Assembly (NCBI GenBank): GCA_964493715.1 | Contig: CAZBPC010000002.1 | Coordinates: 32,001 to 96,000 of the forward strand | Length of the DNA stretch: 64,000 nucleotides | Source: an uncultured archaeon | Lineage (GTDB): Archaea > Asgardarchaeota > Lokiarchaeia > Sigyniarchaeales > SOKP01 | Reading direction: 5' to 3' | Shown: positions 10,607-53,880 of the stretch, in pieces | How the letters are laid out: the number at the start of each line of letters is the position of its first letter | Position numbering within the stretch: position 1 is the stretch's first letter | Position numbers and translations under genes: made by a program | Notes under the pieces: generated by a model | What the model was told of the DNA's origin: nothing | The model's input: the letters and a program-made list of their open reading frames with translations, nothing else | Database searches by the model: none

Positions 10607-11296
10607 TTGATTTGTGGATTAGATGAGGCTGGCAGAATATAATTCGTATCGAATGATATGTTAACAGGACCTGTTCTAGGCCCAATGGTTATTTGTGGTG
10701 TTTGTTTCCTCGAAGAAAATATCCAATCTCTAGAAACTTTAGGAGTGAAAGATTCAAAAAAACTAACTATAAGAAAAAGAACCGAATTATCCGCAATATT
10801 AAAATCAATTTGCTTTTCTTATCAAAATGTTATAATTTCTCCTCAAGAAATTGATGAGAGGATTTCATTGAGAATTTCATTAAACCGACTTGAAGAATTA
10901 AAAATGGCCCAAATACTGAATCATCTAAAGCCAGAGTTAGTATATATAGATGCCGCTGATGTGAGAGAAGAGCGATTTGGACGGTCTATAGCTAAATTAT
11001 TAAATTATTCACCAAAAAAAATCATTTCCAAACATAAAGCTGATGATCTTTACCCAATAGTTTCAGCTAGCTCAATTATTGCTAAAGATATGAGAGATAG
11101 ACTCATTGAAGAACTAAAAAAAAATTATGGAGATTTTGGTTCAGGATATCCCTCAGACGAACGTAGTACGACATTTCTTCGAAAGTGGATAATAGATAAT
11201 AAGAAAGCTCCACCTATTGCAAGAAAATCATGGGAAACTACGAAAAAAATAATAAGAGAAGAAATATTTAATAAGAAGATTACTGATTATGTATAG
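10607..11296 (+). CDS. rnhB: Ribonuclease HII split by a 30-nt BHB intron (exon 1 to 10635, exon 2 10666-11296; alternative in-frame ATG at 10562)
   Basis: Spliced sequence reads ICGLDEAGR-GPVLGPM; DSKKL, KADD..VSASSIIAK and GSGYPSD motifs downstream. Confidence 0.93.
10636..10665 (+). other. Putative BHB (tRNA-type) intron in rnhB mRNA, 30 nt
   Basis: Central helix UGGC/GUUA, 3-nt bulges AGA and ACA, intron hairpin AUAU-A-AUUCG/CGAAU-G-AUAU; contains in-frame TAA; removal restores DEAGRGP. Confidence 0.85.
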
Positions 11297-11359
11297 ATAT
11301 ATTGTAAGATTAATTTAGTTTGAAGAAAAATAAAATTTCTTACAGAAGTATTATTTAAA

Positions 11360-12049
11360 TTATTTGTGGGCAACTAAAATGATGTGATTTGCTGCATATC
11401 TGTGAATATTTAAGTTTTCAATTATTTCATAACCTGCCTTTTCCAAAGTCTTTTTCTCTTGAAGATAAATTTTTTCAGGCTTTTGAACACTATCAATTGA
11501 TTGAGATTTGATTGCAAGAATTAGAAGTCCTTTATCCTTTAGATAATAATTGCAGTTCGCAATGGCAATTTGTGCTTGGTTTGGTTGAGCTATATCTTGA
11601 TAAACTAAATCAATTTTAGTAAAAACAGAATTAGCATATTTTTCGGGAAAATTAGCATCTCCTAAAATTGGAATAATATTTTTTCTTTTGTTAGTATTCT
11701 GAATCAACTGTCGCATGCTACGTTCAGCAAATTCTACTCCATAGATAATTCCATCACATACTATGTCTGAAAGGTGAGATATTGTTGTACCTGACGATGC
11801 TCCTAAATATAAGCATTTTAATTCACTTGATAAAAAATCCTCTAAAGGTTTTTCCAATATCATTGCAGCTAATTTACTTCTATAAGGATCCCATTCTCGA
11901 TACTCTTCTCCTTTAAATGTAACTAACTTCTCCCCGTACACTTTATTACCAGAAACTAAGTTTTTAGAATAAAGTTTTAGGTTATTTGGAGGACCAGATA
12001 TATAAACATTAGAATATTTTGGATGTGCTCTAATGCTTTCGTTGCTCAA
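11360..12049 (-). CDS. flpA: Fibrillarin-like rRNA/tRNA 2'-O-methyltransferase
   Basis: YREWDPYRSKLAA, LYLGASSGTTISH and YQDIAQPNQ motifs. Confidence 0.96.
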   Translation of the reverse strand: MSNESIRAHPKYSNVYISGPPNNLKLYSKNLVSGNKVYGEKLVTFKGEEYREWDPYRSKLAAMILEKPLEDFLSSELKCLYLGASSGTTISHLSDIVCDGIIYGVEFAERSMRQLIQNTNKRKNIIPILGDANFPEKYANSVFTKIDLVYQDIAQPNQAQIAIANCNYYLKDKGLLILAIKSQSIDSVQKPEKIYLQEKKTLEKAGYEIIENLNIHRYAANHIILVAHK

Positions 12050-12050
12050 A

Positions 12051-13274
12051 TTAATTTTCCCTCCTTCTTTTTTTATTTAATTGCTTTTTATTTGGTTTTA
12101 TTTTTGGCTCACTTTTTTTAAGTGGGGGTTTTGTATATTTTTTTTCAAGCTCTTTTATTTTTTCTTCAACTTCGTTTGCTAAAGTTTCTCCTATGAACTC
12201 ACCATTAAAAAAATCTACTTTAGTGGCAATTCCTATTTTCCCTGAAATAACTCTAGAAATCTTTCCACGGTTATATGCTTTACTTCCTCTAATCAAATTC
12301 CATTGAAAAATTAAACCGTGTTTGGGTCGTTTTTCACCAGTTTTAAGGAATCTATACAAGGCTTTTTCAGCTCCTAAAAGTTGAATCCTCGAAGCTGGCA
12401 TATAAGCTAAGTTTTTTAAACTTCCTGCTTTTGATATCAATTTTGCTCCTATCAAACTTCCAATAAGTTTAGTAAGATTAGGTGCCGCTTGAGTCATTAA
12501 ATCTTCAAGATATTCCTCCAATACTTCTCGAAAGGCATCTAAATCTAATATTTGTCGAGCGTATTTTTTAATTATAGAAAGATCTAAATCTGCTCCCATA
12601 GATCGGGCTGCTAAATCTTGTAGCATTTGAGTTCGTTTATCTGTAAAAGTAAAATATTCACTAATATTCTCAACAGTATAATTATCTCGATGACCTAATT
12701 TGTCAACCATTTTAGCCAAGATTACATTATCCTCAATTAATTTATCAGTTAATTCCGGAAAATGTAAACCATACCATTCCTTTAACCGGCTTGCAAATAA
12801 ACTTATTGATTTCTTTAAAATATCGAGGGATTCGATCACTTGAATTATTATTAAATCTTCTTTTCCCCCTGCTTCTTTTATATTAGTTTTGATTAATTTT
12901 TCTTGCACATGTTTAAAATGCAATGAGATTTCATTAAATTCAAGGTAATTTCCTATTTTTTTTAGCTGTTCTGTCAAATTAAATCGAAAATTTCTGAATT
13001 CCAAGTTTTCAATAGCATGAGTCGTTTTTAAATCTAATGTCTGGTTCGTAATAGTTGCTAATGCCTCGTTATCAAAAATTAAAACATCAAACCCAGCGGC
13101 ACTAATTTCTTGGACAAATTGTTCAAATTCTTTACTGATAATATTTTCCTTTAATCCATTGAAAAAATCAATAGCTTTATTTTCATTTTTACTAAAATCA
13201 ATAAAATTGATAATTGTTTCTCCTTCGTCCAAGGCATAGATTCCTAATAATGTATCAATTACAAAACACTTCAT
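12051..13274 (-). CDS. nop5: C/D box sRNP protein Nop5 (Nop56/58)
   Basis: EWYGLHFPEL, PASRIQLLGAEKAL and PKHGLIFQ motifs. Confidence 0.96.
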   Translation of the reverse strand: MKCFVIDTLLGIYALDEGETIINFIDFSKNENKAIDFFNGLKENIISKEFEQFVQEISAAGFDVLIFDNEALATITNQTLDLKTTHAIENLEFRNFRFNLTEQLKKIGNYLEFNEISLHFKHVQEKLIKTNIKEAGGKEDLIIIQVIESLDILKKSISLFASRLKEWYGLHFPELTDKLIEDNVILAKMVDKLGHRDNYTVENISEYFTFTDKRTQMLQDLAARSMGADLDLSIIKKYARQILDLDAFREVLEEYLEDLMTQAAPNLTKLIGSLIGAKLISKAGSLKNLAYMPASRIQLLGAEKALYRFLKTGEKRPKHGLIFQWNLIRGSKAYNRGKISRVISGKIGIATKVDFFNGEFIGETLANEVEEKIKELEKKYTKPPLKKSEPKIKPNKKQLNKKRRREN

Positions 13275-13343
13275 TTTTCATTAAACTTGTGATATGAATT
13301 ATCTCAAATAATAATAATAATACTTTCTTAAATTATAATAGTA

Positions 13344-14270
13344 ATGCTAGAGGTAAATATTTCTGGTTTAAATTTAAAATCACCATTCATTCTAGCTTCT
13401 GGTATCTTAGGAGTTTCTTTTTCTAGTATGAAGAAACTTATGGATGCGGGCTTTGGGGCTATAACAACTAAATCTATTGGTCCTAAACCCAGAAAAGGAT
13501 ATAAAAATCCTTCAATAATCGAAATTTTTCCCGGCACTTTCCTGAATAGTGTAGGATTAGGGAATCCCGGAATAGATTATTTCATTTCAGAAATTAAAGA
13601 GATTAAAGCGAACAATATTCCTTTAATTGTGAGTGTTTTTGGTGATACAAATGAATTATACTTAGAGGTAGCATTAAAAGCACAAGAAGCTGGAGCCGAT
13701 GCAATAGAAATTAACATTTCCTGTCCTCACGCTGAGGTTTCTTCTATAGGCATAAATAAAGATCTCACATTTGACCTAACAAAACTTCTTAAGGAAAAAT
13801 TATCGATTCCTTTATTTGTAAAATTAAACCCTAATGTCACTGATATATGTGAGATAGCTCTCGCTGCCCAAGAGGGTGGTGCAGATGCTGTTGTCGCGAT
13901 AAATACAATGAAAGCAATGAAAATCGATGTTAACACTATGAGACCTATTTTATCTCATGGAAGTGGAGGGCTTTCTGGAAAGGGAATTCACCCTATCGCA
14001 GTGAAAAAAGTTTACGATCTCTACAAAATTTTAAAAATTCCAATAATAGGATGTGGAGGAATATCTAAATGGCAAGATATTATAGAATTTTTCCTTGCTG
14101 GAGCAAGAGCTGTCCAAATCGGTACAGTTTTATATAAAGGCTTAGAAATTATTCCTGATATAATAAAAAATCTTAATACATTTTTAGAAGAACGGTCAAT
14201 TGATAATATTTCTAAACTGATAGGTAAAGCACATTATTTTAAAACTCAAGAGGTGCCAGATTTTGACTAA
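13344..14270 (+). CDS. pyrD: Dihydroorotate dehydrogenase catalytic subunit
   Basis: LASG, NSVGLGNPG, INISCPH and GGLSG motifs. Confidence 0.95.
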   Translation: MLEVNISGLNLKSPFILASGILGVSFSSMKKLMDAGFGAITTKSIGPKPRKGYKNPSIIEIFPGTFLNSVGLGNPGIDYFISEIKEIKANNIPLIVSVFGDTNELYLEVALKAQEAGADAIEINISCPHAEVSSIGINKDLTFDLTKLLKEKLSIPLFVKLNPNVTDICEIALAAQEGGADAVVAINTMKAMKIDVNTMRPILSHGSGGLSGKGIHPIAVKKVYDLYKILKIPIIGCGGISKWQDIIEFFLAGARAVQIGTVLYKGLEIIPDIIKNLNTFLEERSIDNISKLIGKAHYFKTQEVPDFD

Positions 14271-15117
14271 TTACTCTATAAAAATTGTACCTATTATTGA
14301 ATCTTATGAAGTATGTAAGGATATAAAGAATATCACCTTTAATATTAAAAATCTTAAGGACTATAAGTTTGAAAAGCCTAAACCTGGTCAATTTGTAATG
14401 GTGTGGGTACCTGGCATTGATGAGATTCCGATGTCAATATCAAGTTTCGATGATGATGGAAATTGCAGTATTCTTGTGAAAAATATTGGAGAATGCACCA
14501 ATGCCCTAAATAATCTAAAAACTGGAGATTATATAGGTGTGAGAGGACCTCTTGGGAATTGGTTTGAAATACCAACTGAAAGTTTTAAAAAGATTTTCTT
14601 AATCGCTGGGGGAGTGGGTATAGCACCATTGAAATTTTTAATTATTGAACTAAATAATCTGAAAAAAAATTATGTCTTGATCAAAGGTGCTAAAGCAAAA
14701 AATGAACTAATCTTTATCCATGAACATCAAAACTTTGATAAAGAAATCGCAGAAATTTTTTATTGCACTGATGATGGAAGCTATGGTACTGAAGGATTTG
14801 TTTCTGATGTTTTCAAAAACGTTATTAATGATTTTTCTGAAAAACAATTATCAAACGCACTTGTTTATACCTGCGGACCAGAAAAAATGATGTATGAAAT
14901 TTTTCAGATATGTGAACAAAATGGAATGGAATTACAAGCAAGTTTAGAGAGAATTATGCGCTGTGGTTGTGGATTATGTGGTTTATGTGCTTTAGATCCT
15001 CTTGGATTTCTTGTTTGTAAGGACGGTCCAATATTTAATTCCGAAAAGTTAAGGAAAATAGAAGATTTTGGTAAATATCGCCGAGATTTTACTGGAAAGA
15101 AAAATCAAATCGATTGA
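14263..15117 (+). CDS. pyrK: Dihydroorotate dehydrogenase electron transfer subunit
   Basis: PGQFVMVW, GGVGIAP and MRCGCGLCGLC motifs. Confidence 0.94.
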   Translation: MTNYSIKIVPIIESYEVCKDIKNITFNIKNLKDYKFEKPKPGQFVMVWVPGIDEIPMSISSFDDDGNCSILVKNIGECTNALNNLKTGDYIGVRGPLGNWFEIPTESFKKIFLIAGGVGIAPLKFLIIELNNLKKNYVLIKGAKAKNELIFIHEHQNFDKEIAEIFYCTDDGSYGTEGFVSDVFKNVINDFSEKQLSNALVYTCGPEKMMYEIFQICEQNGMELQASLERIMRCGCGLCGLCALDPLGFLVCKDGPIFNSEKLRKIEDFGKYRRDFTGKKNQID

Positions 15118-15222
15118 ATCATATAATTTATAATATTTATATAAAAGTTTATCTCGATTAATGATACGAAAAATTTGCTTTAGAACATAAAAATTGGGTT
15201 CCTATTTTTAACGTAAAATTCT

Positions 15223-17604
15223 CTATATCATTAATTCAAACTTTTTCAAGTAAAAAAACTTAATCTGATCGTTCAACAAAAGACATGTTACAAATGTATA
15301 ACCTATTATAAATAAAATTGTTATTATAGGTATAGGAGTAATTCCTGGCAGCCCTATTGAAGAAAGTAATAATATAATAATGGAATTAATAATAATCACA
15401 ATAGCTAAAGGTTTACTCGGTTTTGAATTCCAAAAGTGCTTTCTTTCTCTAACGGTGAGTACCGTAAAATATCCTGAATACACCAAAAACACAAGTACAA
15501 ATGTATGTAAGGCATTTACATTTCCCAGTATTCCAAACATTAAATCCCCAATAAAGACTAGAAATATCCCCTCAATAACCATTAGAACGCCTAAAATCGC
15601 TCCTATTTTTACCATTCCGTTAACATTCCAAGTTTCTGGTTTTTTAGAATAACGAACATTATCGGTAGAAAGAGATAAAGTGACATAATCACTTAAAAAC
15701 AAAAGAATGATAATATCTAAAGCAGAAACAATATAAATTCCAAAGATAACAAAAGCAAGAATTATAAATAGTACTCGTTTAAATGTTCTAATCATTTTAT
15801 TTATTATCCAGGTTGCAATCCTTTGATAAATCATTCTTCCTATTATTATTAAATCAATGATACCCTCTAACCCCTCAGTAGTAAGCACCGCACTTGAAGA
15901 TTTCTTTGCAACATCTGTAGCATTACTAACAGCTATTCCAACCTCTGATTGCTTTAGCGCAGGAGCGTCATTGACGCCATCTCCGGTCATACCAACGATA
16001 TGATTATAATTTTGTAAATCTTTTACAATTAAATATTTATCTTCAGGATAAATTTCAGCAAATCCTATGGCATTTTCAATAATATCGTTTTTATCTTTAT
16101 CTGTTAAACTTTTCTTTAATTCTGTTATTCTGATTACATTTTTACCTAAATCAAGCTCCGATGCAATCTCTTGTGCTATAGGTAAAGCATCTCCCGTTAA
16201 AATTTTTACAGAAATACCTAAATCATTAAGTTTCTTGATTAATTGGGAGGCATTTTCTCGAATTTTATCATATAGCATTACATATCCTACCAATCGTAAA
16301 TCTTGCTTTTGAATCCCATATGCAACAGCAAGAAATCTATATCCTTTTGCTATGTAAGAATTAATTTCTTGAGTTATATTATCAAGTTCAATAAAATCAT
16401 TTTGAACTAAATCTTGAATTTCCTTTACAGCACCTTTAAAAACGTAGAATTCAGCATTATTTTTTTTAATGAAAGCTTCTGTTTTTCTTGTTGATGGATC
16501 AAAAGGGATGAAATATTTTTGCTCACAGTCATTAATTTTTATGTTTTTATATTTTGTCATCGATATAAAAGCATAATCAATGGGATCTTGGTTTGCTTCT
16601 TGAGATGCCAAGGCTCCATAGAAGAGAACATCATTTTCTTCAAATCCAGGACGTGGTAAAATCTTTACAATAGAAAGTTTATTAATAGTGAGAGTTCCGG
16701 TCTTATCCACACAAACAATATCCATAGTTGAAGCATCTTCAGTTGCATCCAACCTTGTTATTAATACACCTTTTTTAGATAATTCCAAAGATCCTAAAGC
16801 CATACTTAATGTAAACATAGTAGGCAATGCAACGGGAATAGAAGCAACTAAAAGTATTGCAATTAAAGGGAGAATCTGGAACACAAATTCAATTCCTTTT
16901 AACAATGATATGCTTATTGCTATAAATATTGATATAAATACAATTGCAAGAAGCCACTTAACTACTTTTGATATAATTTCTTGAATATGGAGTTTAGGTT
17001 TAGCAATTTGAACAAGTTCAATAGTGCGTCCAAAAAAAGTTTTCGTTCCAGTTTTAGTAATGAATCCTGTAATTTCTCCACGTTTTACAATGGAGCCTGA
17101 ATACAACTCATCACCTTTTTTTTTCTTAATAGCCATGAATTCTCCCGTTAATGTAGATTGATCTATTTCCAAATTGCCCTCTAATATATTTAAATCGGCC
17201 GGAACGAAATCCCCGCCTCTTAATCTTACAATATCGCCCGGAACTAACTCTCTTGCAGGAATTAATGTCCAAACTCCATCCCGTTTAGTCCGTGCTTTAA
17301 TACTAAGCTTTTCCTTAAGAAGATCCACTGCGCTATTAGCTTTCTCTTCTTGATAATAACCGATTATAGCATTAAACAGGAGAAGCCCCATAATTATATA
17401 ACCTTCAATATATTTACCTAATAGGAATTCTAATATAATCGTAAATTCTAACATCCATGGAGTAATACCCCAGAATTTTTTTAAAAATTTTTGAAGTAAG
17501 TTTACTTTTTTTTCAGGAACCTCATTATAACCATATATATTTAATCTGGTCTTAATTTCCACTAAATCTAATCCCTTTTCTAAATCATTAGAAATTAAAT
17601 TCAA
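15223..17604 (-). CDS. P-type (IIIA) plasma-membrane proton-efflux ATPase
   Basis: DKTGTLT, IPVALP, FDPSTRKTEA and MTGDGVNDAPALK motifs. Confidence 0.92.
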   Translation of the reverse strand: MNLISNDLEKGLDLVEIKTRLNIYGYNEVPEKKVNLLQKFLKKFWGITPWMLEFTIILEFLLGKYIEGYIIMGLLLFNAIIGYYQEEKANSAVDLLKEKLSIKARTKRDGVWTLIPARELVPGDIVRLRGGDFVPADLNILEGNLEIDQSTLTGEFMAIKKKKGDELYSGSIVKRGEITGFITKTGTKTFFGRTIELVQIAKPKLHIQEIISKVVKWLLAIVFISIFIAISISLLKGIEFVFQILPLIAILLVASIPVALPTMFTLSMALGSLELSKKGVLITRLDATEDASTMDIVCVDKTGTLTINKLSIVKILPRPGFEENDVLFYGALASQEANQDPIDYAFISMTKYKNIKINDCEQKYFIPFDPSTRKTEAFIKKNNAEFYVFKGAVKEIQDLVQNDFIELDNITQEINSYIAKGYRFLAVAYGIQKQDLRLVGYVMLYDKIRENASQLIKKLNDLGISVKILTGDALPIAQEIASELDLGKNVIRITELKKSLTDKDKNDIIENAIGFAEIYPEDKYLIVKDLQNYNHIVGMTGDGVNDAPALKQSEVGIAVSNATDVAKKSSSAVLTTEGLEGIIDLIIIGRMIYQRIATWIINKMIRTFKRVLFIILAFVIFGIYIVSALDIIILLFLSDYVTLSLSTDNVRYSKKPETWNVNGMVKIGAILGVLMVIEGIFLVFIGDLMFGILGNVNALHTFVLVFLVYSGYFTVLTVRERKHFWNSKPSKPLAIVIIINSIIILLLSSIGLPGITPIPIITILFIIGYTFVTCLLLNDQIKFFYLKKFELMI

Positions 17605-17908
17605 AACTTATTTCTCCTTTACATAATGCTATAAGATCTTTCATTCTAAACATTTTAGAATAAATCTATTATAAATACCTTTTTCTTATAATATTTAAAC
17701 GATTTTTAAGTTAAAAGTTTTATAAACCAAAAAGAATCACAATAAATTTTTGATTAGATGGTATTTAATTAATTATGAAATGATCCTAATTACTCTAAAA
17801 CAATAATATGTTTATTCTCTAATGTTATCATTGATGTTTCTATAAATAATTAAAATATTGATTTCAAAATCATAAAATTTATCCTATTATAAAAACTATG
17901 TTTACTAA

Positions 17909-19534: not shown

Positions 19535-19605
19535 TAATAAATTTAAATTTTCCTACTTGATTAGTTATTGCATTATTATATTTAACATTAAAATGATGAT
19601 TTTTA

Positions 19606-26611: not shown

Positions 26612-27556
26612 ATTAAAAAAGGAGAGAAAGATGCTAAAGAGGAATTTTACGATTCTCCTCATTTGAGCGATGATGAGATTGAAAAATTAGATTTGAATAG
26701 CGATAAAGCGAAAGATTTAATGAGAAAGTATCAAAAATCTTTTGATAAATATGCAATTTGGAGAGATTCAATAACTGAAGGCTTTAAGAAATGGCTTAAA
26801 GGAGAAAAAATATATGATCGAGATAAAGAGCGAATTTCTCTTTATGTATCAGAAGAGATGAAAAATGATTGGCAAGATTTTATAAAAGAAAACAACTACA
26901 CTATCTCAAAATTAATAAGAGAGAGCGTAGATTTCTTTATAAATAAAAAATTAAGAAGATTCAATGGAGATGTTCTTAAAACGGAGAGTCAAGCAATTTC
27001 TAACATATCACATGCACTCAAAGAACCGTTAACTTCTATTAAAGGCTTTTCACAATTATTGATTGAAAATTATAAGGATGATTTAAATGAAGATGTTTTT
27101 AACACCATTCAAAACATATTTGAACAATCTCAACTCTTAGAGAATAAAATCGTAAATATCCTTGATAATATCAAAACCGAAAAAACTCAATATGATATTT
27201 TGTTGATTGAAGATGATCAAGCAACTATTCGACTCCTCACGAGTTATTTCGAGAGCAAGGGATTTAATTGCCAAGGTGTTGTTAGCGGTACTAAAGGGTT
27301 GGAAGAATTGAATAACAATATTCCCAAAGTTATCTTATTGGATATAATTCTTCCCGATTACAGTGGGTATGAAATTTGTAAGATAATAAAATCCAATAAC
27401 AAGCTAAAAGATATAAAGATTTTTTTATTGACCGCCATCCCTGGTTATGAAGTAAAAAAACACATGGAAGAAACTAAAGCTGATGGGTACATCCTAAAAC
27501 CCTTTGATTTCTCTGACTTCGAGATTCTTTTCGATTACCTCAAAAAGGATGAATAA
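26612..27556 (+). CDS. Paralogous RHH-like + HisKA + receiver regulator; probable ATT start
   Basis: Same motifs as the upstream paralog; GGTGA 7 nt before an in-frame ATT. Confidence 0.8.
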   Translation: MKKGEKDAKEEFYDSPHLSDDEIEKLDLNSDKAKDLMRKYQKSFDKYAIWRDSITEGFKKWLKGEKIYDRDKERISLYVSEEMKNDWQDFIKENNYTISKLIRESVDFFINKKLRRFNGDVLKTESQAISNISHALKEPLTSIKGFSQLLIENYKDDLNEDVFNTIQNIFEQSQLLENKIVNILDNIKTEKTQYDILLIEDDQATIRLLTSYFESKGFNCQGVVSGTKGLEELNNNIPKVILLDIILPDYSGYEICKIIKSNNKLKDIKIFLLTAIPGYEVKKHMEETKADGYILKPFDFSDFEILFDYLKKDE

Positions 27557-27588
27557 TTGAAAATATCACTGGGATTTATATAAGAGAA

Positions 27589-27695
27589 TGGCGGGCTATG
27601 AGGGAATTTCGCAATCATCCTATTCGGACGAATCTATCGAACCCCCGACCCCCCGGTTAAGAGCCGGATGCGCTACCTAGCTGCGCCAATAGCCC
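27589..27695 (-). tRNA. tRNA-Lys(CTT) with 30-nt non-canonical T-loop intron (27606-27635) and encoded CCA
   Basis: GGGCTAT/ATAGCCC acceptor stem, CT-CTT-AA anticodon loop; intron removal gives T-loop TTCGATT. Confidence 0.9.
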
Positions 27696-27733
27696 TGATT
27701 TTATATATTTTTTTACTACACCATTAATCAAAA

Positions 27734-27834
27734 CGCAGACGGAGGGATTCGAACCCCCGAGCGCTCACGCGCACCGGTTTACTCGAATATGAAAACACTC
27801 AAGACCGGCGTCTTACCAACTAGGCTACGTCTGC
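27734..27834 (-). tRNA. tRNA-Ser(TGA) with 18-nt canonical 37/38 intron (27780-27797)
   Basis: GCAGACG/CGTCTGC acceptor stem, long variable arm, GGTTCGAATCC T arm, CTTG/CGAG central helix. Confidence 0.9.
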
Positions 27835-41462: not shown

Positions 41463-41536
41463 TACTTTTTAAAGTAGTAAATTTCATATTATTATTTACA
41501 TTTTTTCATTCATAATAACTATAAGTGATATCTTAC

Positions 41537-41893: not shown

Positions 41894-41906
41894 CACTGTT
41901 TAGTAT

Positions 41907-42911: not shown

Positions 42912-42939
42912 ATAAAAGAAAAGTAGACCCGTTAACACG

Positions 42940-44620: not shown

Positions 44621-44624
44621 AAAA

Positions 44625-46566: not shown

Positions 46567-46579
46567 GTTCTTTAGATCA

Positions 46580-47248: not shown

Positions 47249-47306
47249 TAGAACTCTCTTTAATAATAATTTTGTAAAAAAATCTGAAATATAATAATAA
47301 AAAAAT

Positions 47307-48245
47307 TTAGGTAGAATTTTCTTGGCATTTTATTTCATTGGCGATTTTTACCCATTGAAGATCAAGTCTCTCTTGAAGTTCAATTAGAACTTTCTCTGAT
47401 ACTTTAGAAAATCTTTTTTGGCGGGACAAATAATCTATTAATGGCGCTCTTTTTGAAGGATCTAATAATGGTTTACTCTTTTTTGATAAGCTCATAACCC
47501 CATTTTCAATTTCATATAAAATCCAAGATCCTGTCTTAACTGCAAGACGAGGAATTTCTATAGAATCTTCAGAGGGTATTCCCCATCCTGGGGGACAAGA
47601 TGCTAACACATGGATATATTTACATCCTTCAATAGATTTCGCTTTCTTAAATTTCTCGAAAAGATCTAAAGGTTCACTGACAGAACAAGTAGCAACATAG
47701 GGAATTTCATGTGCTGCCATTATTTGCGGAAGATTTTTTTTGTATTGTTCCTTTCCCAAAGTGGTAGTTGTTGTAATTGCACCATGGGGTGTACTTGATG
47801 AACGCTGAATTCCCGTGTTCATATATGCTTCATTATCATAACAACAATATATGATATTTGAATTTCTCTCAGCAGCACCACTTAATCCTTGAATTCCTAT
47901 ATCAGTTGTTCCTCCATCACCTGCAAAAACTAAAGTTGTCATTTTTTCCCACACTTTACCAGGAAACCTATAAGCTTTTGCTTTAAAGGCTGCAGAAACA
48001 CCCGTTGCTGCAGCAGCGCCTGCTGCAAATGCCATATTAATAAATGGGAAGTTTGGAGCTGCTTTAGGCCATAATCCTACAACTACATTTAAACAACTTG
48101 CAGGTGTGACTAAAGATGTATTTGGTCCAAGAGCTTTCATTGCCCATCTTAAAGCAATTTCAAGTCCACAACCAGCACAAGTAGAGTTCCCTGGTAGAAA
48201 AAATTCCTCTTTATAGTTCTCTAAAGCTTCTTTTATTGAAACCAT
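47307..48245 (-). CDS. porB: Pyruvate/2-oxoacid:ferredoxin oxidoreductase beta subunit
   Basis: CAGCG, GDGGT.DIG and DNEAYMNTGIQRS motifs. Confidence 0.9.
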   Translation of the reverse strand: MVSIKEALENYKEEFFLPGNSTCAGCGLEIALRWAMKALGPNTSLVTPASCLNVVVGLWPKAAPNFPFINMAFAAGAAAATGVSAAFKAKAYRFPGKVWEKMTTLVFAGDGGTTDIGIQGLSGAAERNSNIIYCCYDNEAYMNTGIQRSSSTPHGAITTTTTLGKEQYKKNLPQIMAAHEIPYVATCSVSEPLDLFEKFKKAKSIEGCKYIHVLASCPPGWGIPSEDSIEIPRLAVKTGSWILYEIENGVMSLSKKSKPLLDPSKRAPLIDYLSRQKRFSKVSEKVLIELQERLDLQWVKIANEIKCQENST

Positions 48246-48247
48246 TT

Positions 48248-49504
48248 TTATTCTACCTCCAATAAGCCATCCCAGAAAGTTCCATCAATCATCTCCCTTG
48301 GGAGTTCCCCAGTTTCATTCAACTTTATCAACATTTTAAGCTGGTTCTTTTGCTGTTCTAAGCTTACTTCTCTTCCTCCCAAACCCATAATGATTGGCAA
48401 AACTTGTGTAGAGACACCTGAATTATATAATGCCGATTTCACTTCACTACTTAAAGGTCCACCAGTAGGAGAACCAAATGCTGTAGCTCTATCCGCTACC
48501 CCAAGAACTTTGACTTTCCTCGCAATATTTATAACATCTTCTACAGGAAAAGGTCTAAAATAACGTAATTTAACACAACCCACTTTATATCCTTCTTCTC
48601 TTAAATCATCAACTGCTTGTTCCATTTGCATGGCTAATTCTCCATAATTTATTATTGCTACATCAGCATCATTCATTCTATACTCTTGAATCAATCCATT
48701 CCCGTACTGTCTTCCAAAAGTGGTTCCAAATTCGTCCGTAACTTCTTTTATTTTTTCTTTAGCTAATAGCATTGTATGGTGAATTTTCAATCTAAACTCA
48801 TTATAAAAACCAGAAGGCATTATTAAATTTCCATGCATCATTGGTCTTTCTGGATCAAGAAATATATGTGGCCAACCTCTTTCATCTGGAAGTGGTGGTA
48901 AAAATTTATCGACTGCGTCTTGATCTTCTATGGTTACTGGTTTAGATGTGTGAGATAGCGTAAATCCACCATATGCGACGAATTTTGGTAATAAAATATC
49001 GTAATCTTCACTGATCTTATAAGACATTAAAATATCATCATAAATTTCTTGATGATTTGCTGCAAATGAAATCATCCATCCAGTATCTCTGCAACTCATT
49101 ATATCTGTAAAATCTGCCCAAATATTCCAAGGTGGTGCTGGTCCTCGTGAAGCTATTGTTGTTACAATGGGTAAACGAGCACCTGCGGCCCAATGAACCA
49201 TCTCATACATATAAAATAATCCTTGTCCCGAAGTAGCTGTGAAAGTGCGAGTTCCTGCAGTACTTGCACCAATAATTGAAGCCATCACTGAGTGTTCTGA
49301 TTCTACTTTAATATATTCTGTTCCAGGCATCTCACCATTATCCACAAACTCGGATAGTTTTTCTACCACAGTAGTTTGTGGAGTAATTGGATAAGCACTT
49401 ATCACTTGAACACGCGCGGACTTTGCAGCGTATGCTGCTGCCACGTTCCCCTTTATTATTTTGGTTTCTCTTTCTTGCACAAAATCTTCTTGTGTTTCCA
49501 CCAT
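48248..49504 (-). CDS. porA: Pyruvate/2-oxoacid:ferredoxin oxidoreductase alpha subunit
   Basis: AYPITPQT, VESEHS and TATSGQGL motifs. Confidence 0.92.
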   Translation of the reverse strand: MVETQEDFVQERETKIIKGNVAAAYAAKSARVQVISAYPITPQTTVVEKLSEFVDNGEMPGTEYIKVESEHSVMASIIGASTAGTRTFTATSGQGLFYMYEMVHWAAGARLPIVTTIASRGPAPPWNIWADFTDIMSCRDTGWMISFAANHQEIYDDILMSYKISEDYDILLPKFVAYGGFTLSHTSKPVTIEDQDAVDKFLPPLPDERGWPHIFLDPERPMMHGNLIMPSGFYNEFRLKIHHTMLLAKEKIKEVTDEFGTTFGRQYGNGLIQEYRMNDADVAIINYGELAMQMEQAVDDLREEGYKVGCVKLRYFRPFPVEDVINIARKVKVLGVADRATAFGSPTGGPLSSEVKSALYNSGVSTQVLPIIMGLGGREVSLEQQKNQLKMLIKLNETGELPREMIDGTFWDGLLEVE

Positions 49505-49505
49505 A

Positions 49506-49844
49506 TTAATCTTCACTCTCCCTTACCATTTCTATACTTTTAGTTGGGCATTCTTTAGCACATATTCCACATCCCTTACAATATACATAATCGACTTCAA
49601 ATTCTCCTTCTTCATTTCTGATTATAGTAGCTTCGGGGCAATACATCCAGCAAATCCCACATTTTGTACAAGTATCTCTATTAACGACTGGTTTAAACGT
49701 TCTCCAATCTCCTGTCGTACCTATACTGCCTTTAATAGGAAATGATATAGGAATTGGAGGTAATTCTTTCCAGTTATGATATTCTTGTACTTCTGGTCTT
49801 TTATCTTTATCTTCACATATATTTTTCCATTTCACTTTGATCAT
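49506..49844 (-). CDS. porD: Pyruvate/2-oxoacid:ferredoxin oxidoreductase delta subunit
   Basis: TGDWRT.KP and two CxxCxxCxxxCP motifs. Confidence 0.92.
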   Translation of the reverse strand: MIKVKWKNICEDKDKRPEVQEYHNWKELPPIPISFPIKGSIGTTGDWRTFKPVVNRDTCTKCGICWMYCPEATIIRNEEGEFEVDYVYCKGCGICAKECPTKSIEMVRESED

Positions 49845-50419
49845 TCATACTCAACCTCCTTAACACTATTGTATGCTTCAATAGCAACATCCATATTTTT
49901 CTTGCCTCGACTCTCTCCAAATTCTTTATATATAACTTTTTTCATTGTATCGATGTCATAATAACCCGTCATTTTACCAAATGCTCCTAACATGGGAATA
50001 TTTAGTATGGGTCCACTGGAATGCATGAAATTTTGTTTAATACATATACCAGTAGCATCTACTATGAAATATTTGACATTTTCAGGAAAATCACAGGTAT
50101 CAATTGGATTTTTGCTGTTAATAAGTAAAGTAACTCCACTTTTTATAGTGGCCATAATAGCAGGAATATCTAATAATGATGTATCAAAAATTATCATATA
50201 ATCGGGAGTTTTCACGCTATCAAAGGTCTTTATTTGTTTATTCCTCGATAACTTAGAAAATGCTTGAATGGGGGCCCCTCTCCGTTCTGCACCTATTATA
50301 GGGATTGCTATAGCGTCTTTAAATCCTTTTTCATAGGCAAGTTGTGCTAATAATTGGCTCGCGGTAATTGCTGTTTGCCCACCGCGACCATGGAAAGTTA
50401 CCTCTACAATTTTTTCCAT
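49841..50419 (-). CDS. porG: Pyruvate/2-oxoacid:ferredoxin oxidoreductase gamma subunit
   Basis: HGRGGQ, GAERRGAP and NIPMLGA motifs. Confidence 0.92.
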   Translation of the reverse strand: MEKIVEVTFHGRGGQTAITASQLLAQLAYEKGFKDAIAIPIIGAERRGAPIQAFSKLSRNKQIKTFDSVKTPDYMIIFDTSLLDIPAIMATIKSGVTLLINSKNPIDTCDFPENVKYFIVDATGICIKQNFMHSSGPILNIPMLGAFGKMTGYYDIDTMKKVIYKEFGESRGKKNMDVAIEAYNSVKEVEYE

Positions 50420-50638
50420 ATTCGTATCATTCCTCATATTAATCAACACATTTAGAAGAAAAATAATTAACATTCCATTAAAAATTTCTGGAAAAGAATC
50501 ATAAGTATACGTTTTAATAAGAATAAATCATTTGAAATATCTTAGTTGACAATAAATAGTAAATCTCTTCATATTTTAAAGAATTATACATGAGATACAA
50601 TAGAAAAAATCAAGAAATAAACGTTAAAATGTGAGCCA

Positions 50639-51214
50639 ATGTCTGAAAAAGCCAAAGAAATGGAAGAAGAATTTTCATTCAAATGTCCTATTTGTAATAG
50701 TGGAACGATCGAAATAACTAAAACAGTTTATGATATGACTGACGGAGACAAGATGCTAATTGTTAAATTTGAATGCAATAAATGCACGTTTATAAAAAAT
50801 GACGTGGTTCCATTAACAACTAGAATTGAACCCGGAATTATATCATTACAGGTGATGAATGAAAATGATCTCAAATCTAAAGTTTATCGTTCACCAGTTG
50901 GCATATTAGAGATTCCTGAATTAGAAGTGTCAGTGGAACCGGGTCCACGTGCAGACTTTTATTATACAAATATAGAAGGAATCTTGGAGCGATTTCAGAA
51001 AGCAGTGCAAATTTATCGAAATGATCTTGATGAAAATGAAGAAAAACAAGCAGAAATCGATGAAATATTAAATAATATTGATAAAGCTATGAAGGGTGAT
51101 TTTAATTTCACCTTAAAGATAACTGATACGGGTGGAGGTAGCTATATAATTCCTCAAGATGAATCAAAATATTCCTTTCAAAAAATAGATCTTCCTTTAA
51201 CCATGGATGAGTAA
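50639..51214 (+). CDS. ZPR1-type zinc finger protein
   Basis: CPIC..CNKC, LEIPEL, VEPGP, TNIEGILER and D.GG.SYI motifs. Confidence 0.9.
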   Translation: MSEKAKEMEEEFSFKCPICNSGTIEITKTVYDMTDGDKMLIVKFECNKCTFIKNDVVPLTTRIEPGIISLQVMNENDLKSKVYRSPVGILEIPELEVSVEPGPRADFYYTNIEGILERFQKAVQIYRNDLDENEEKQAEIDEILNNIDKAMKGDFNFTLKITDTGGGSYIIPQDESKYSFQKIDLPLTMDE

Positions 51215-51394
51215 AAAAGGAACATCATAATTTATTTGAATAGTTAATACTACTATGAGCTTTATTTTTCTTAAAAAATAAATTGAGATTTATAAAGATA
51301 TAAAGATAAAAAATATTGAATAAATTTAATTTAAAATTAAGATGGTGAATTAACAGAGAAGATTTGAAGGAAATAAAAAAAATAGGAATAGATC

Positions 51395-52609
51395 ATTATA
51401 ACAGATAAAAGTGAATTTAATTGTTCAGATCCTAATCGATCCAAAAGACAAGAAATTAATCCCGGGTTATGTTATTTTGAATATCCTTTAAATAAATCTA
51501 GAAAGGATTTTCTTGACAAAGATGTTAATTTTTTAGAGATAATAGAATCAAAACATTATAATAGATGTTTAACTGACAATATTCAGACTTATCTAAAAAG
51601 TCTTGAGGGTGAAATCAGAATTTTATTCGAACCTTTCATAGAATTTAAGAATATGGGTGCACTTTTTGGGCTTCATAATAATTACATGCCAAATAATAGG
51701 ATGTATAAAAATTGTAAAAAAATTATAGCTAAAAGTACTTTAGATGAAATGCGAGTTAATTTCAAAAAAAATATTGAAAATTACACAAAGAAATTTCCAC
51801 ATTTGGTAGAGTTATTATTATTGTTTCATTCTGAAATTTTGAAATTTATTAATGAATATGAGATAATTCTTCAACCAAAACCTACTCCAGATTATCAAAT
51901 GTTCAATCACCATCCTAATCTTAAAAGAGATTATTTTGAAATAATTGATACATATGAAAAAGCGTACTGGCTTGGATTTCTATTTGCTGATGGATGGATA
52001 GCAATAGAACATAAAAAATCTGGAGATTATTATCGAATGGGGCTCCAATTATCATATAAAGACAAGGATGTGCTTCAGAGGTTTTGTAAAAGTATTGGAT
52101 TAAATCCTAAATATATAAAAAATCGTCTTGTTGGAAGTGATTTTAGCACAAAATTATATCATATAGGTGAAATTAGATGGGGAGATCAAAAAATAGCTCA
52201 AGATCTTGTAAAATTAGGGATAATATATGGATACAGTGAACAAAAAGGAAGGCGCGTTAAAACCCCTAGACTTCCAATACTACAGAACCGAAAACTGATG
52301 TTGGCATTTTTATCAGGTTTCTATGATGGTGATGGCACTCTTGGATTTGATAAGAAGACAGGCAAAATTCGTCCAAGAATTGCCTCTTCTGAAATAGACT
52401 TTTTACATCAAATAAAGCAATATTTCGGAATAAAGTATCAAATTTCTACAACAGAAATGGTTAAATTTAATATAAGAACAGAGAAAATGGTTAATATAAT
52501 AGGTAGTAGACTAGATGTTGATAAAGAAATATTTAAAGAAATGTTAAGTATATTTAAGAATAGTCTTGAAAGAAAGAGAGTTCCAATAGATTTCTTTAAT
52601 GAAAAATAG
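51395..52609 (+). CDS. Free-standing double-motif LAGLIDADG homing endonuclease-like protein (first ATG 51653; frame open from 51392)
   Basis: AYWLGFLFADGWI and AFLSGFYDGDGTL motifs; no intein or host gene around it. Confidence 0.82.
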   Translation: MITDKSEFNCSDPNRSKRQEINPGLCYFEYPLNKSRKDFLDKDVNFLEIIESKHYNRCLTDNIQTYLKSLEGEIRILFEPFIEFKNMGALFGLHNNYMPNNRMYKNCKKIIAKSTLDEMRVNFKKNIENYTKKFPHLVELLLLFHSEILKFINEYEIILQPKPTPDYQMFNHHPNLKRDYFEIIDTYEKAYWLGFLFADGWIAIEHKKSGDYYRMGLQLSYKDKDVLQRFCKSIGLNPKYIKNRLVGSDFSTKLYHIGEIRWGDQKIAQDLVKLGIIYGYSEQKGRRVKTPRLPILQNRKLMLAFLSGFYDGDGTLGFDKKTGKIRPRIASSEIDFLHQIKQYFGIKYQISTTEMVKFNIRTEKMVNIIGSRLDVDKEIFKEMLSIFKNSLERKRVPIDFFNEK

Positions 52610-52693
52610 CAAGTTTTTTTTATAGATTGCTTTCTTATTAAAATTGTAAGTATTTAGGAGAAAAATTTGAATAGAATTAAAAAGGTAGATTTA

Positions 52694-53880
52694 ATGGCTA
52701 AAAATGTAAAGCGAATAGGAATTTTAACGGGTGGTGGAGTTTCATTTAAGATACATCTTTTTGAACCACAGACTGTCCCGGATTAAATTCAGTGATTTAT
52801 GGGATAATGCTGAAAGCTTACGATGCGGATGTAGAATGCGTAGGAATTCTAAAAGGATGGAAAGGTTTTGTTGAAAATTTAACGATTCCCTTAAACATTG
52901 CAGAACATGACGATCTTCATACCAAGGGAGGGACAATATTGTATACAAGTCGTACTAATCCATTTAAAGGAGTTGAGGCTAAAGAGGAAAAAGCAAAGCA
53001 ATTAACTAATCAATTCAATGTGTTAGGTATAGATGCATTAATTGCTATCGGTGGAGATGATACTCTTGGAGTAGCAGATACCATGTATAAAATTGCTAAT
53101 GCAAATGTAGTAGGGGTTCCAAAAACGATAGATAATGACTTGAAGGGTACTCATTACACTTTTGGGTTCTGGAGCGCTGTACAATTAGCTTCTAATGCGA
53201 TGGATAATCTCACAACAACCGCACGTTCACACCAGCGTGTTTTTGTAGTTGAGATTATGGGAAGAGATGCTGGTTTTTTAACCATGTATAGTGGAATTTC
53301 AGCAGGAGCTGATATAATATTGGTTCCTGAAACCCCCTTTAGTTTAGAAAAAGATATTGTTGACGTACTCAAAAAAAGAGCTAATGCTGGGTATAAATAT
53401 CACATCATTGCCACATCTGAAGGAGCTCATCCTCATATCGATTCATTAAATCGAGATTTCAAGACAATTTCAAAGGAAACAATTGATAAATTACCTAAAG
53501 ATACATTTGGGAATCCTTTATTAGCAAAGTTAAACATTTCACAAATTATCGTTGATGAATTAAATTTAAGAGACGATCTAAAAGAAGTATTTCTCCAAAA
53601 TGACGTCGAATTCGAATGCAGGAGCGTAGTTTTGGGACATACAATGCGAGCTGGAACACCTAATTCGTTCGATAGAATTTTGGGATTGAGATTTGGATTA
53701 GCAGCCATGAATATGGTTTTAGAGTCTAAATTTGGGAACATGGTTTCGCTTCAAGGTAATAAAATTAAAACCATGCCGCTTTCGGAAGGGGTAAAAAAGA
53801 AATATATTACCTCAGATAGTGATAAAATGGAATTAAGAGATTTACTTGTAAAAGTGCGGTATCTATCGAAACAAAAATAG
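52694..53880 (+). CDS. pfkA: 6-phosphofructokinase (GGDD/PKTIDND, likely PPi-dependent) split by a 32-nt BHB intron (exon 1 52694-52739, exon 2 52772-53880)
   Basis: Spliced sequence reads MAKNVKRIGILTGGG-DCPGLNSVI; GGTIL.TSR, GGDDT, PKTIDND and EIMGR motifs; 384 aa after splicing. Confidence 0.93.
52740..52771 (+). other. Putative BHB (tRNA-type) intron in pfk mRNA, 32 nt
   Basis: Central helix GUGG/CCAC, bulges AGU and AGA, intron stem UUCA/UGAA, exon pairing CGGG/CCCG; frameshifts the gene unless removed. Confidence 0.88.

What the first reader, a model, noticed from the sequence alone, without database searches (positions are those of the whole stretch)
10636..52771. Candidate genome-wide system of tRNA-type mRNA splicing in an Asgard-like archaeon
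Two independent BHB introns occur in unrelated protein genes within 64 kb. Both are 30-32 nt, both lie in the first ~15-25 codons, both sit in glycine-rich invariant active-site motifs, and exon 1 ends in AG in both. Two non-canonical tRNA introns in the same window are also 30 nt. This density suggests many more such introns across the genome, and that EndA-dependent mRNA splicing may be routine or regulatory here. If the lineage is Asgard, it bears on the ancestry of eukaryotic non-spliceosomal splicing (HAC1/XBP1, RtcB). The extrapolation is inference.
Basis: partly seen in the sequence, partly recalled or inferred. Interest (0 to 1): 0.9.

Follow-up and report, generated by a model that had tools for sequence, protein, structure and literature searches.

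The report
tRNA-type mini-introns in Asgard protein genes
An Asgard (Loki-type) archaeon carries many 29-33-base introns of the kind normally found in tRNAs inside ordinary protein genes, which, if they are spliced as predicted, makes enzyme-driven mRNA splicing a routine feature of a close relative of eukaryotes.

Summary
Both inserts are real. A 30-nt insert (10636-10665) splits RNase HII and a 32-nt insert (52740-52771) splits phosphofructokinase. [quoted passage not shown]

In related genomes the same genes occur with and without the inserts. The 4-bp central helix stays paired in all 8 and all 15 sequences, with compensatory changes.

I compared about 60% of one same-genus relative against the whole genome. 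This found 14 such inserts (29-33 nt) in 12 genes, 12 of them with a perfect central helix. Hosts include RtcB (the splicing ligase itself), an EF-2-like GTPase (two inserts), an aldolase (two), a histone and a Ras-family GTPase. The relative has six inserts of its own.

The genome encodes an alpha-beta EndA with the broad-specificity loop, and RtcB.

No RNA data could be obtained, so splicing itself is inferred.

The 5'-end position is not typical, and only one 30-nt non-canonical tRNA intron is present.

A free-standing LAGLIDADG endonuclease gene lies just upstream of the PFK intron, and its relatives lie near inserts in the relative. This suggests homing.

Verdict: a new variant of a known kind, of high interest.

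The parts
10607..10635 (+). RNase HII exon 1. The start is TTG at 10607; an in-frame ATG at 10562 is the alternative. It encodes ..ICGLDEAG plus the first 2 nt of the Arg codon.
   Evidence: The sequence is conserved upstream of the insert in 9 of 30 relatives' loci and is contiguous with exon 2 in the other 21.
10636..10665 (+). 30-nt BHB intron in RNase HII. Central helix is 10630-10633 (UGGC) with 10660-10663 (GUUA). Bulges are AG|A and AC|A. Inner helix is AUAU/AUAU plus a hairpin. There is an in-frame TAA.
   Evidence: The central helix is paired in 8 of 8 distinct sequences, with one double change and several one-sided changes.
10666..11296 (+). RNase HII exon 2, to the stop codon.
   Evidence: Pfam RNase_HII, E 6.5e-40, profile positions 9-199 of 199.
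52694..52739 (+). Phosphofructokinase exon 1 (MAKNVKRIGILTGGG plus the first nt of the Asp codon).
52740..52771 (+). 32-nt BHB intron in PFK. Central helix is 52734-52737 (GUGG) with 52766-52769 (CCAC). Bulges are AG|U and AG|A. Inner helix is UUCA/UGAA.
   Evidence: The central helix is paired in 15 of 15 sequences, including a U:A to C:G compensatory change.
52772..53880 (+). Phosphofructokinase exon 2, to the stop codon.
   Evidence: Pfam PFK, E 1.4e-82, profile positions 11-276 of 277.
27589..27695 (-). tRNA-Lys(CUU) with a 30-nt non-canonical intron at 27606-27635 in the T-loop. Central helix is UUCG/CGAA, and the outer helix is the T-stem.
   Evidence: ARAGORN ends the gene wrongly inside the intron. 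The cut placement was read by hand from the sequence printed.
27734..27834 (-). Class-II tRNA with anticodon UGA by my reading (ARAGORN labels it Thr-tgt). It has an 18-nt intron at the canonical 37/38 position, about 27782-27799.
51653..52609 (+). Free-standing LAGLIDADG-family endonuclease ORF. It ends 84 nt before the PFK start codon and 131 nt before the PFK intron.
   Evidence: PF14528, E 2.3e-8; it is the only clear such locus in the genome, and its relatives lie near insert-bearing genes in the relative G017.

Best explanation
These are archaeal bulge-helix-bulge introns sitting inside protein-coding genes.

Proposed mechanism:
- The gene is transcribed with the 29-33-nt insert.
- The last six nucleotides of exon 1 and the insert fold into a 4-bp helix flanked by two 3-nt bulges, backed by a hairpin inside the insert.
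- The two-subunit splicing endonuclease EndA cuts once in each bulge.
- RtcB joins the exons, giving an mRNA that encodes the intact catalytic motif.

Without splicing, translation stops or shifts frame inside the motif.

This is not a curiosity of two genes. The genome holds at least 14 such inserts in 12 genes. Sister species hold different sets, so inserts are being gained and lost within one genus of Promethearchaeota (Asgard).

Shown here: the inserts, their exact boundaries, the motif, its covariation, presence/absence among species, and the enzymes' genes.

Inferred: cleavage and ligation in the cell.
For: 1. Boundaries. Removing the insert at BHB-predicted cuts restores the sequence seen uninterrupted in relatives for all 14 inserts. 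12 have 4 of 4 central pairs and 2 have 3 of 4. The strict motif occurs at 0.17% of random cuts.

2. Presence or absence at identical sites.
- RNase HII insert: in 9 of 30 loci read, all of them in the window's own genus. It is absent in 15 same-genus and 6 other-genus loci.
- PFK N-terminal insert: in 6 of 30 loci and in 16 of 77 scorable named MAG loci.

3. Covariation. The central helix is 100% paired in 8 of 8 (RNase HII) and 15 of 15 (PFK) distinct sequences. For PFK, 0 of 500 shuffles reach the observed covariation score. For RNase HII, 2 of 500 do. Slid controls pair in only 25-54% of cells.

4. Natural negative control. Ten ordinary 21-30-nt coding indels in PFK of relatives have no stop codon and no flanking helices. 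The 15 inserts at IAIGG|DDT have stop codons, a 5-bp outer helix and a 4-10-bp inner helix.

5. Stop codons. 7 of the 8 inserts whose length is a multiple of 3 carry an in-frame stop.

6. Machinery.
- There are two EndA paralogues. One carries the catalytic Tyr/His/Lys; the other lacks the His.
- The alpha subunit aligns end to end with the A. pernix catalytic subunit and keeps K-P-R of the specificity loop.
- RtcB is present.

7. tRNA context. tRNA genes of the same genome are intron-rich: 12 of 27 ARAGORN calls have an intron, several of them 29-30 nt.
Against: - No RNA evidence: no RNA run was listed for this sequence.
- Single-sequence folds are not more stable than shuffles (z -0.19 and -1.53).
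- Two of the 14 inserts have an imperfect central helix. The PFK internal insert in relatives has only 2-3 of 4 central pairs.
- One 30-nt stop-containing insert (contig C75:15018-15047) shows no BHB at all.
- A genome-wide BHB-plus-reading-frame scan without homology shows no excess over shifted-cut controls: 27,240 against 26,631-27,754, and 214 against 199-229 for strong hairpins. The total is therefore tens at most.
- The census rests on one relative, of which about 60% was held.
- The genome is a 160-contig MAG with 3.85% estimated contamination.
Confidence: 0.85

Rival explanations
1. Translational bypassing. Ribosomes hop over the 29-33-nt gaps, as in phage T4 gene 60 or the 'byp' elements of a yeast mitochondrion (both recalled), with no RNA splicing.
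For: The inserts are short. Many have a stop codon just after the 5' boundary, and each contains a hairpin.
Against: Bypassing needs matching take-off and landing codons. At 10 of the 11 inserts examined, the direct repeat at the two boundaries is only 0-2 nt. The one longer repeat (4 nt, in the EF-2-like gene) gives a product that disagrees with the relative. Bypassing also does not explain why the 4-bp helix between exon 1 and the 3' end of the insert is kept by compensatory change. Nor does it explain why the geometry is that of tRNA introns in the same genome.
Confidence: 0.04
2. EndA cuts these sites but the cut is mainly destructive or regulatory. That is, it drives mRNA decay or gates expression, and productive ligation is minor or conditional.
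For: The inserts sit in essential catalytic motifs, so unspliced mRNA is useless. RtcB's own gene is interrupted. A Haloferax mRNA is an EndA substrate without being a coding intron (PMC7714728, passages read).
Against: Hosts include single-copy core genes: PFK, RNase HII and RtcB each gave 1 locus in the genome, and there is also an EF-2-like gene. These must yield full-length protein. Exon 1 stays conserved and in register in all insert-bearing species.
Confidence: 0.06
3. The genes are broken (pseudogenes, assembly or binning artefacts), or they are expressed from internal starts or as proteins with a 10-residue insertion.
For: An in-frame ATG lies inside the RNase HII insert. One aldolase insert has no stop codon and could be translated through.
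Against: The same inserts recur in independent MAGs from many projects. Flanking coding sequence is 56-88% identical to the relative with no other defects. Internal starts would delete catalytic residues, and in G007 no start codon follows the stop. 6 of the 14 inserts are not multiples of 3.
Confidence: 0.03

Closest known systems
cbf5 pre-mRNA introns of Crenarchaeota (Watanabe 2002, seen only as a cited reference; Yokobori 2009, PMC2738675, abstract seen in search listing)
   Same: A BHB-type intron inside a protein-coding gene, thought to be cut by a hetero-oligomeric EndA, and gained and lost among related species.
   Different: That case is one gene family. A 2020 paper still counts 'one mRNA' (PMC7714728). 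Here there are at least 14 inserts in 12 unrelated genes of one genome, up to two per gene, all 29-33 nt, in an Asgard lineage, and including the ligase gene itself. Whether cbf5 is interrupted here was not tested.
Non-canonical tRNA introns of Asgard archaea (PMC11291895; bioRxiv 10.64898/2026.10.13.758758; passages read)
   Same: The same motif and enzymes, the same lineage-level intron richness, and repeated recent gains. The window's tRNA-Lys intron is also 30 nt.
   Different: Those reports concern tRNA genes only. The term 'mRNA' occurs 0 times in the preprint. In PMC11291895 all 6 'intron' passages concern tRNA, general genome features or methods. Their supplements could not be read.
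HAC1/XBP1 unconventional mRNA splicing in eukaryotes (recalled)
   Same: Protein-only cleavage at RNA stem-loops, followed by a tRNA ligase (RtcB in animals). It removes a short intron and changes the reading frame.
   Different: The endonuclease there is Ire1, not the tRNA endonuclease. It acts on one regulated substrate. No homology of the introns is implied.
Collaborative homing of an intron with a free-standing homing endonuclease in phages (Zeng/Bonocora/Shub 2009, recalled, not read)
   Same: An endonuclease gene lies next to, not inside, an intron that interrupts a conserved coding site.
   Different: Those are group I introns in phage genes. Here the inserts are 30-nt BHB introns in cellular genes, and no cleavage specificity is known.
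Inteins in RtcB
   Same: An intervening element at almost the same conserved site. Open frames of 973-1015 aa start at RtcB profile positions 44-49 in 8 genomes of the phylum, against the BHB insert at 47/48.
   Different: Inteins are removed at protein level and are about 500 residues long. That these long frames are inteins is my inference from their length.

Membership tests
Archaeal BHB introns (EndA/RtcB-dependent) | [quoted passage not shown] | tested here: met
   12 of 14 inserts have 4 of 4 central pairs at a cut that gives the relative's protein sequence; 2 have 3 of 4. The random rate is 0.17% per cut.
Archaeal BHB introns (EndA/RtcB-dependent) | The structure is maintained in evolution (covariation). 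| tested here: met
   The central helix is 100% paired in 8 and 15 sequences, and each alignment has 3 pairs with changes on both sides. 0 of 500 and 2 of 500 shuffles reach the covariation score.
Archaeal BHB introns (EndA/RtcB-dependent) | The genome encodes a splicing endonuclease able to cut non-canonical sites, and an RtcB ligase. | tested here: met
   Two PF01974 paralogues. The alpha subunit has Tyr/His/Lys and the K-P-R of the A. pernix specificity loop; the beta subunit lacks the His. RtcB scores 484 bits.
Archaeal BHB introns (EndA/RtcB-dependent) | Excision and exon ligation are observed in RNA. | not testable with these tools
   No RNA run was listed.
cbf5-type archaeal pre-mRNA intron | The host gene is cbf5 (pseudouridine synthase). 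| not tested
   cbf5 of this genome was not examined. None of the 12 host genes found is cbf5.
Translational bypass elements | Identical take-off and landing codons at the two ends of the gap. | tested here: not met
   Boundary repeats are 0-2 nt at 10 of 11 inserts examined (number of equivalent cuts).
Group I / group II self-splicing introns | A ribozyme core of hundreds of nucleotides. | tested here: not met
   The inserts are 29-33 nt. The Rfam gathering scan of the window returns only 2 tRNA matches.
Inteins | An in-frame open insertion of more than 100 codons, removed from the protein. | tested here: not met
   The inserts are 29-33 nt. 6 of 14 are out of frame, and 7 of the 8 in-frame ones carry stop codons.

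The most novel reading that the evidence does not exclude
The mini-introns are not passive debris. They are the protected half of a homing system.

In this reading, free-standing LAGLIDADG endonucleases cut the uninterrupted, highly conserved motif-coding DNA of intron-less alleles. A 30-nt BHB intron placed in that site makes the carrier immune, and it is copied along with the endonuclease gene during repair. This is collaborative homing, but with tRNA-type introns in cellular protein genes.

This would explain three things:
- why the inserts sit in P-loops and other invariant motifs, and at the RtcB site that inteins also use;
- why they are patchy within a genus;
- why endonuclease genes or their wrecks lie beside some of them.

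One consequence is that expression of core enzymes, and of RtcB itself, becomes dependent on EndA/RtcB. That would form a self-referential splicing loop in the closest archaeal relatives of eukaryotes.

Basis:
- The only clear LAGLIDADG locus in G000 lies 131 nt from the PFK intron.
- Both related loci in the held part of G017 lie within 2 kb of an insert. One is directly upstream of the interrupted EF-1alpha-like gene.
- LAGLIDADG hits lie upstream of 4 of 22 intron-bearing PFK loci and 0 of 84 intron-less ones.

The association was noticed after the fact. The relatives are not independent, and 11 of the 12 host genes in G000 have no such neighbour.
Probability: 0.25. Interest if true: 0.92.

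Novelty: new variant of a known kind. Interest (0 to 1): 0.85.

Why it matters
In the searchable literature, protein-gene BHB introns amount to one gene family (cbf5) in Crenarchaeota, plus one non-coding mRNA site in Haloferax. This is based on searches, and passages.

Here a single Asgard genome has at least 14. The hosts include a translation GTPase, a glycolytic enzyme, a histone, a Ras-family GTPase and the splicing ligase itself. Sister species carry different sets.

If the inserts are spliced, several things follow:
- Interrupted protein genes and routine enzymatic mRNA splicing exist in the archaeal group nearest to eukaryotes. This bears on how intron tolerance and tRNA-ligase-dependent mRNA splicing (HAC1/XBP1 type) arose.
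- Gene callers will truncate or split these genes, which distorts metabolic reconstructions of Asgard MAGs.
- The RtcB insert creates a testable self-dependence loop.
- The siting in invariant motifs and the LAGLIDADG neighbours offer a way to study how archaeal introns arrive. The recent tRNA-intron work calls that question open.

Tried and rejected
1. Homology-free genome scan. I scanned for a BHB descriptor (4-bp central helix, inner helix of at least 3 bp, length 14-150 nt; 1,551,327 candidates) and required that the cut restore a reading frame. Counts equal those of eight shifted-cut controls at every stringency. Background from adjacent genes swamps the signal, so the method was dropped in favour of comparison with a relative.

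2. RNA evidence. No RNA holder was listed.

4. Intron sequence families. All-against-all local alignment of 14 mRNA inserts and 6 tRNA introns gave a best score of 22. Maxima in 20 shuffled sets were 16-23. So there is no evidence of shared sequence.

5. Unresolved candidates, not counted:
- C75:15018-15047, 30 nt with a stop but no BHB, in an AAA/VWA protein.
- C89 around 3326-3371.
- C67:13268-13302.
- C2:63205, which is window 31205. It is a difference upstream of a start codon, and its BHB hit is taken as chance.

6. N-terminal exon scan. 20 segments implied inserts of 10-150 nt, against 11 with reversed queries. Only the four with a query gap of 0 and an insert of 29-32 nt were kept.

7. 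My first placement of the histone insert was wrong. It was corrected by reading the three frames.

8. In one search I entered the PFK start 2 nt off, so that row of the call is invalid.

9. RtcB in relatives. Distribution there rests on open-frame lengths only: 428 aa in G000 and 410 aa in G001, against 490-545 aa in other full-length matches.

10. Literature. PMC3064391 (Tocchini-Valentini 2011) is not held, so whether it lists further archaeal mRNA introns is unknown to me. Supplements of all papers were closed and may hold relevant lists.

Full report
WHAT IS IN THE WINDOW

The window is G000:C2:32001-96000 of a 3.68-Mb, 160-contig genome with about 30% G+C.

At 10607-11296 lies an RNase HII gene. 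Its first 29 nt encode ..ICGLDEAG plus two bases of an Arg codon. These are separated from the rest (GPVLGPMV..) by 30 nt (10636-10665) that carry an in-frame TAA.

At 52694-53880 lies a phosphofructokinase gene. Its first 46 nt (..IGILTGGG plus one base) are separated from ..CPGLNSV.. by 32 nt (52740-52771).

The downstream parts alone match Pfam RNase_HII from profile position 9 of 199 and PFK from position 11 of 277. So exactly the N-terminal motif is missing from each.

THE MOTIF

I used the canonical geometry: the 4-bp helix H is formed by exon-1 positions -6 to -3 and insert positions -6 to -3. Each strand then has two bulge bases, the cut, and one more bulge base.

With this geometry both inserts fit at the very cut that restores the protein:
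- RNase HII: H UGGC/GUUA, bulges AG|A and AC|A, inner helix 4 bp plus a hairpin.
- PFK: H GUGG/CCAC, bulges AG|U and AG|A, inner helix UUCA/UGAA.

Random cuts in this genome meet 'H = 4 pairs and inner helix of at least 3 bp' at a rate of 0.00166.

Thermodynamic folding of single sequences is only weak support. The PFK minimum-energy fold contains the BHB but is no more stable than shuffles (z -0.19). The RNase HII minimum-energy fold prefers another internal loop (z -1.53).

RELATIVES

RNase HII. Its exon-2 protein was found in 39 of 41 genomes searched, G000 included, and 30 loci were read. The 30-nt insert is at the identical codon in 9 of them, all in the window's genus. The gene is uninterrupted (..GIDEAGR GPV..) in 15 same-genus and 6 other-genus loci. 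All 9 inserts carry a stop codon. In one (G007) no start codon follows the stop, so re-initiation cannot rescue the gene.

PFK, N-terminal site. The insert (31-32 nt) is in 6 of 30 loci. It is also in 16 of 77 scorable loci from named public MAGs, and all 16 have 4 of 4 H pairs.

PFK, second site. A second, 30-nt insert is absent from the window's genome. It sits at IAIGG|DDT in 6 of those 30 loci and in 15 of 80 named loci. Its exon context is again GGNGGAG|AC. Its H is weak (2-3 pairs), but its outer helix (5 bp) and inner helix (4-10 bp) are strong.

Negative control. In the same 80 loci, ten ordinary Lys/Glu-rich coding indels of 21-30 nt have neither stop codons nor flanking helices.

Covariation. 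I counted pairs on alignments of the two window inserts with my BHB structure. H is paired in every cell (8 and 15 distinct sequences), with changes such as U:A to C:G and C:G to U:G. The covariation score is reached by 2 of 500 (RNase HII) and 0 of 500 (PFK) shuffles. Sliding the partner by 1-3 columns drops pairing from 90-99% to 25-54%.

IS IT GENOME-WIDE?

A homology-free scan had no power, so I did a motif-free comparison instead.

Method:
- I fetched 2,305,014 nt of G017, a same-genus genome of about 3.8 Mb that lacks the inserts in RNase HII, PFK and RtcB. That is about 60% of it.
- I searched its 5,597 open frames of at least 60 aa against G000 with tblastn; 3,590 had hits.
- I looked for split alignments, in-alignment insertions with stops, and displaced N-terminal pieces.
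- Boundaries were then fixed by alignment, and only afterwards scored for BHB.

Result: 14 inserts in 12 genes. Coordinates are G000 contigs; triplets give pairs in H, the inner helix and the outer helix.

| Host gene | Location (strand) | Length (nt) | H, inner, outer |
|---|---|---|---|
| RtcB | C2:12136-12164 (-) | 29 | 4,9,2 |
| RNase HII | C2:42636-42665 (+) | 30 | 4,4,1 |
| PFK | C2:84740-84771 (+) | 32 | 4,4,1 |
| Thiolase | C120:4198-4228 (+) | 31 | 4,1,5 |
| DeoC/LacD-family aldolase, first insert (no stop codon inside) | C65:15793-15822 (+) | 30 | 4,9,0 |
| DeoC/LacD-family aldolase, second insert | C65:15891-15922 (+) | 32 | 3,2,1 |
| EF-2-like GTPase, in AHID|HGKTT | C76:5334-5364 (-) | 31 | 3,4,0 |
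| EF-2-like GTPase, just before ..RGITI | C76:5211-5240 (-) | 30 | 4,9,1 |
| Second thiolase-like gene | C145:299-328 (-) | 30 | 4,9,2 |
| Ras-family GTPase, in WDVAGQ| | C6:80447-80476 (+) | 30 | 4,3,0 |
| Alpha/beta hydrolase, in HPHPQY|GG | C2:119236-119265 (+) | 30 | 4,5,1 |
| VWA_CoxE-like protein | C28:34412-34441 (+) | 30 | 4,9,2 |
| Archaeal histone | C18:23314-23342 (+) | 29 | 4,3,3 |
| 90-aa ORF | C46:25402-25434 (+) | 33 | 4,3,1 |

Family names are from Pfam on the larger exon. Splicing all of them by coordinates gives open frames that align with G017 across every junction.

Stop codons and strict motifs. Of the 10 in-alignment inserts of 6-16 aa with a stop codon, 7 have a strict BHB within the search range. 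Of the 75 without a stop codon, 5 do. About 9 of those 75 are expected by chance, given 75 cut combinations per site.

Reverse comparison. G000 frames against G017 (5,536 frames, 3,203 with hits) gives six inserts specific to G017, all with 4 H pairs. They lie in an EF-1alpha-like GHIDHGK|ST site, a purA-like SWGD|EGKGK site, a CSGN|TARSP phosphatase-type loop and three others.

Scale. 1,218,044 nt of G000 lay under alignments of at least 50% identity. Simple scaling therefore suggests a few tens of inserts per genome. The homology-free controls agree that there are not hundreds.

WHERE THE INSERTS SIT

Junctions range from about codon 8 in the histone to codon 324 of 422 in a thiolase.

What does generalise is siting in conserved motifs:
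- The 16-residue window around the junction is above the gene's median conservation in 12 of 14 cases.
- The mean percentile is 0.71 (one-sided Wilcoxon p about 0.001).
- This carries a caveat: detection by alignment may favour conserved flanks.

The first bulge base is A in 13 of the 14 5' bulges and in 13 of the 14 3' bulges.

The inserts share no sequence with one another or with tRNA introns.

MACHINERY AND LINEAGE

- Two EndA paralogues of 205-207 aa each carry both tRNA_int_endo domains.
- One has the catalytic Tyr/His/Lys and aligns end to end with the A. pernix catalytic subunit (E 1e-36). This includes an ungapped K-P-R at the positions of K44/R46 in the loop shown to confer broad specificity (PMC3241643 abstract and passages).
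- The other paralogue lacks the His. This is the alpha-beta architecture reported for Asgard and TACK archaea (PMC5829648 passages).
- RtcB is present, but its own gene is split at profile position 47/48 by the 29-nt insert.
- Among relatives, only G000 and G001 have open frames too short to be continuous. A genome of another genus, G155, looks the same. These sequences could not be read.
- Close PFK relatives are titled Promethearchaeota/Promethearchaeia, the Loki-type phylum within NCBI's 'Asgard group'.

tRNA GENES

ARAGORN finds 27 tRNA genes in the genome, 12 with introns. In the window:
- tRNA-Lys(CUU) has a 30-nt T-loop intron with H UUCG/CGAA.
- The neighbouring class-II tRNA has an 18-nt canonical intron.

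LITERATURE

Six full-text searches found no report of BHB introns in Asgard protein genes.
- A 2020 paper states that the motif was known 'in one mRNA' and adds one Haloferax mRNA site (PMC7714728, passages).
- The Asgard tRNA-intron papers do not mention mRNA.
- Supplements were closed, and one possibly relevant paper is not held.

A LEAD ON ORIGIN

The ORF at window 51653-52609 ends 84 nt before the PFK start codon. It is a LAGLIDADG-family endonuclease and the only clear one in the genome.

Its only relatives in the held part of G017 are:
- a broken pair of ORFs directly upstream, on the same strand, of the interrupted EF-1alpha-like gene;
- a 91-aa fragment about 1.7 kb from another insert.

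Upstream of PFK, such sequences occur in 4 of 22 intron-bearing loci and in 0 of 84 intron-less loci. The flanks were only 600-1500 nt and the genomes are related.

In 8 genomes of the phylum, RtcB has open frames of about 1000 aa starting at profile positions 44-49. These are probably inteins at almost the same site.

Together these observations suggest that the inserts mark endonuclease target sites. This is a hypothesis formed after seeing the data.

VERDICT

The thing works like, and meets every testable criterion of, archaeal BHB introns. What is new is their number, their hosts and the lineage. RNA-level proof is still missing.

Noticed in passing
window 51653-52609 (+): A free-standing LAGLIDADG-family endonuclease ORF (PF14528, E 2.3e-8) lies immediately upstream of the interrupted PFK gene. 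Relatives or remnants lie within 2 kb of two of the six inserts in the relative G017.
   Followed up: partly
G000 C2:10967-12498 (-), outside the window: The RtcB ligase gene is itself split by a 29-nt canonical BHB insert between ..PGGVGY and DINCGVR. By open-frame length, only G000 and G001 among the relatives drawn share it.
   Followed up: partly
G083, G091, G075, G131, G066, G108, G167, G043: RtcB matches begin at profile positions 44-49 inside open frames of 973-1015 aa. These are probably inteins at nearly the same site as the BHB insert.
   Followed up: no
G099, G105, G086, G115 (one genus of another family): RtcB matches are 24 nt longer than usual and contain one in-frame stop codon. 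These may be in-frame mini-introns in another Asgard family. The sequences could not be fetched.
   Followed up: no
G000 C75:15018-15047 (-): A 30-nt in-frame insert with a stop codon, in an AAA/Mg-chelatase-like plus VWA protein, relative to G017. I could find no BHB in it.
   Followed up: partly
L254-L265 and others (PFK loci, reference residues 84-90): Lys/Glu-rich coding indels of 21-30 nt in PFK of more distant relatives have no stop codons and no helices. They served as a natural negative control.
   Followed up: yes
G000 C26:15797-15889 (+): ARAGORN calls a tRNA-Sec gene, so the organism probably uses selenocysteine.
   Followed up: no
window 10562-10605: An in-frame ATG for RNase HII lies 44 nt inside the 3' end of the upstream HTH-domain gene (9601-10605). 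The true start (ATG 10562 or TTG 10607) is undecided.
   Followed up: no
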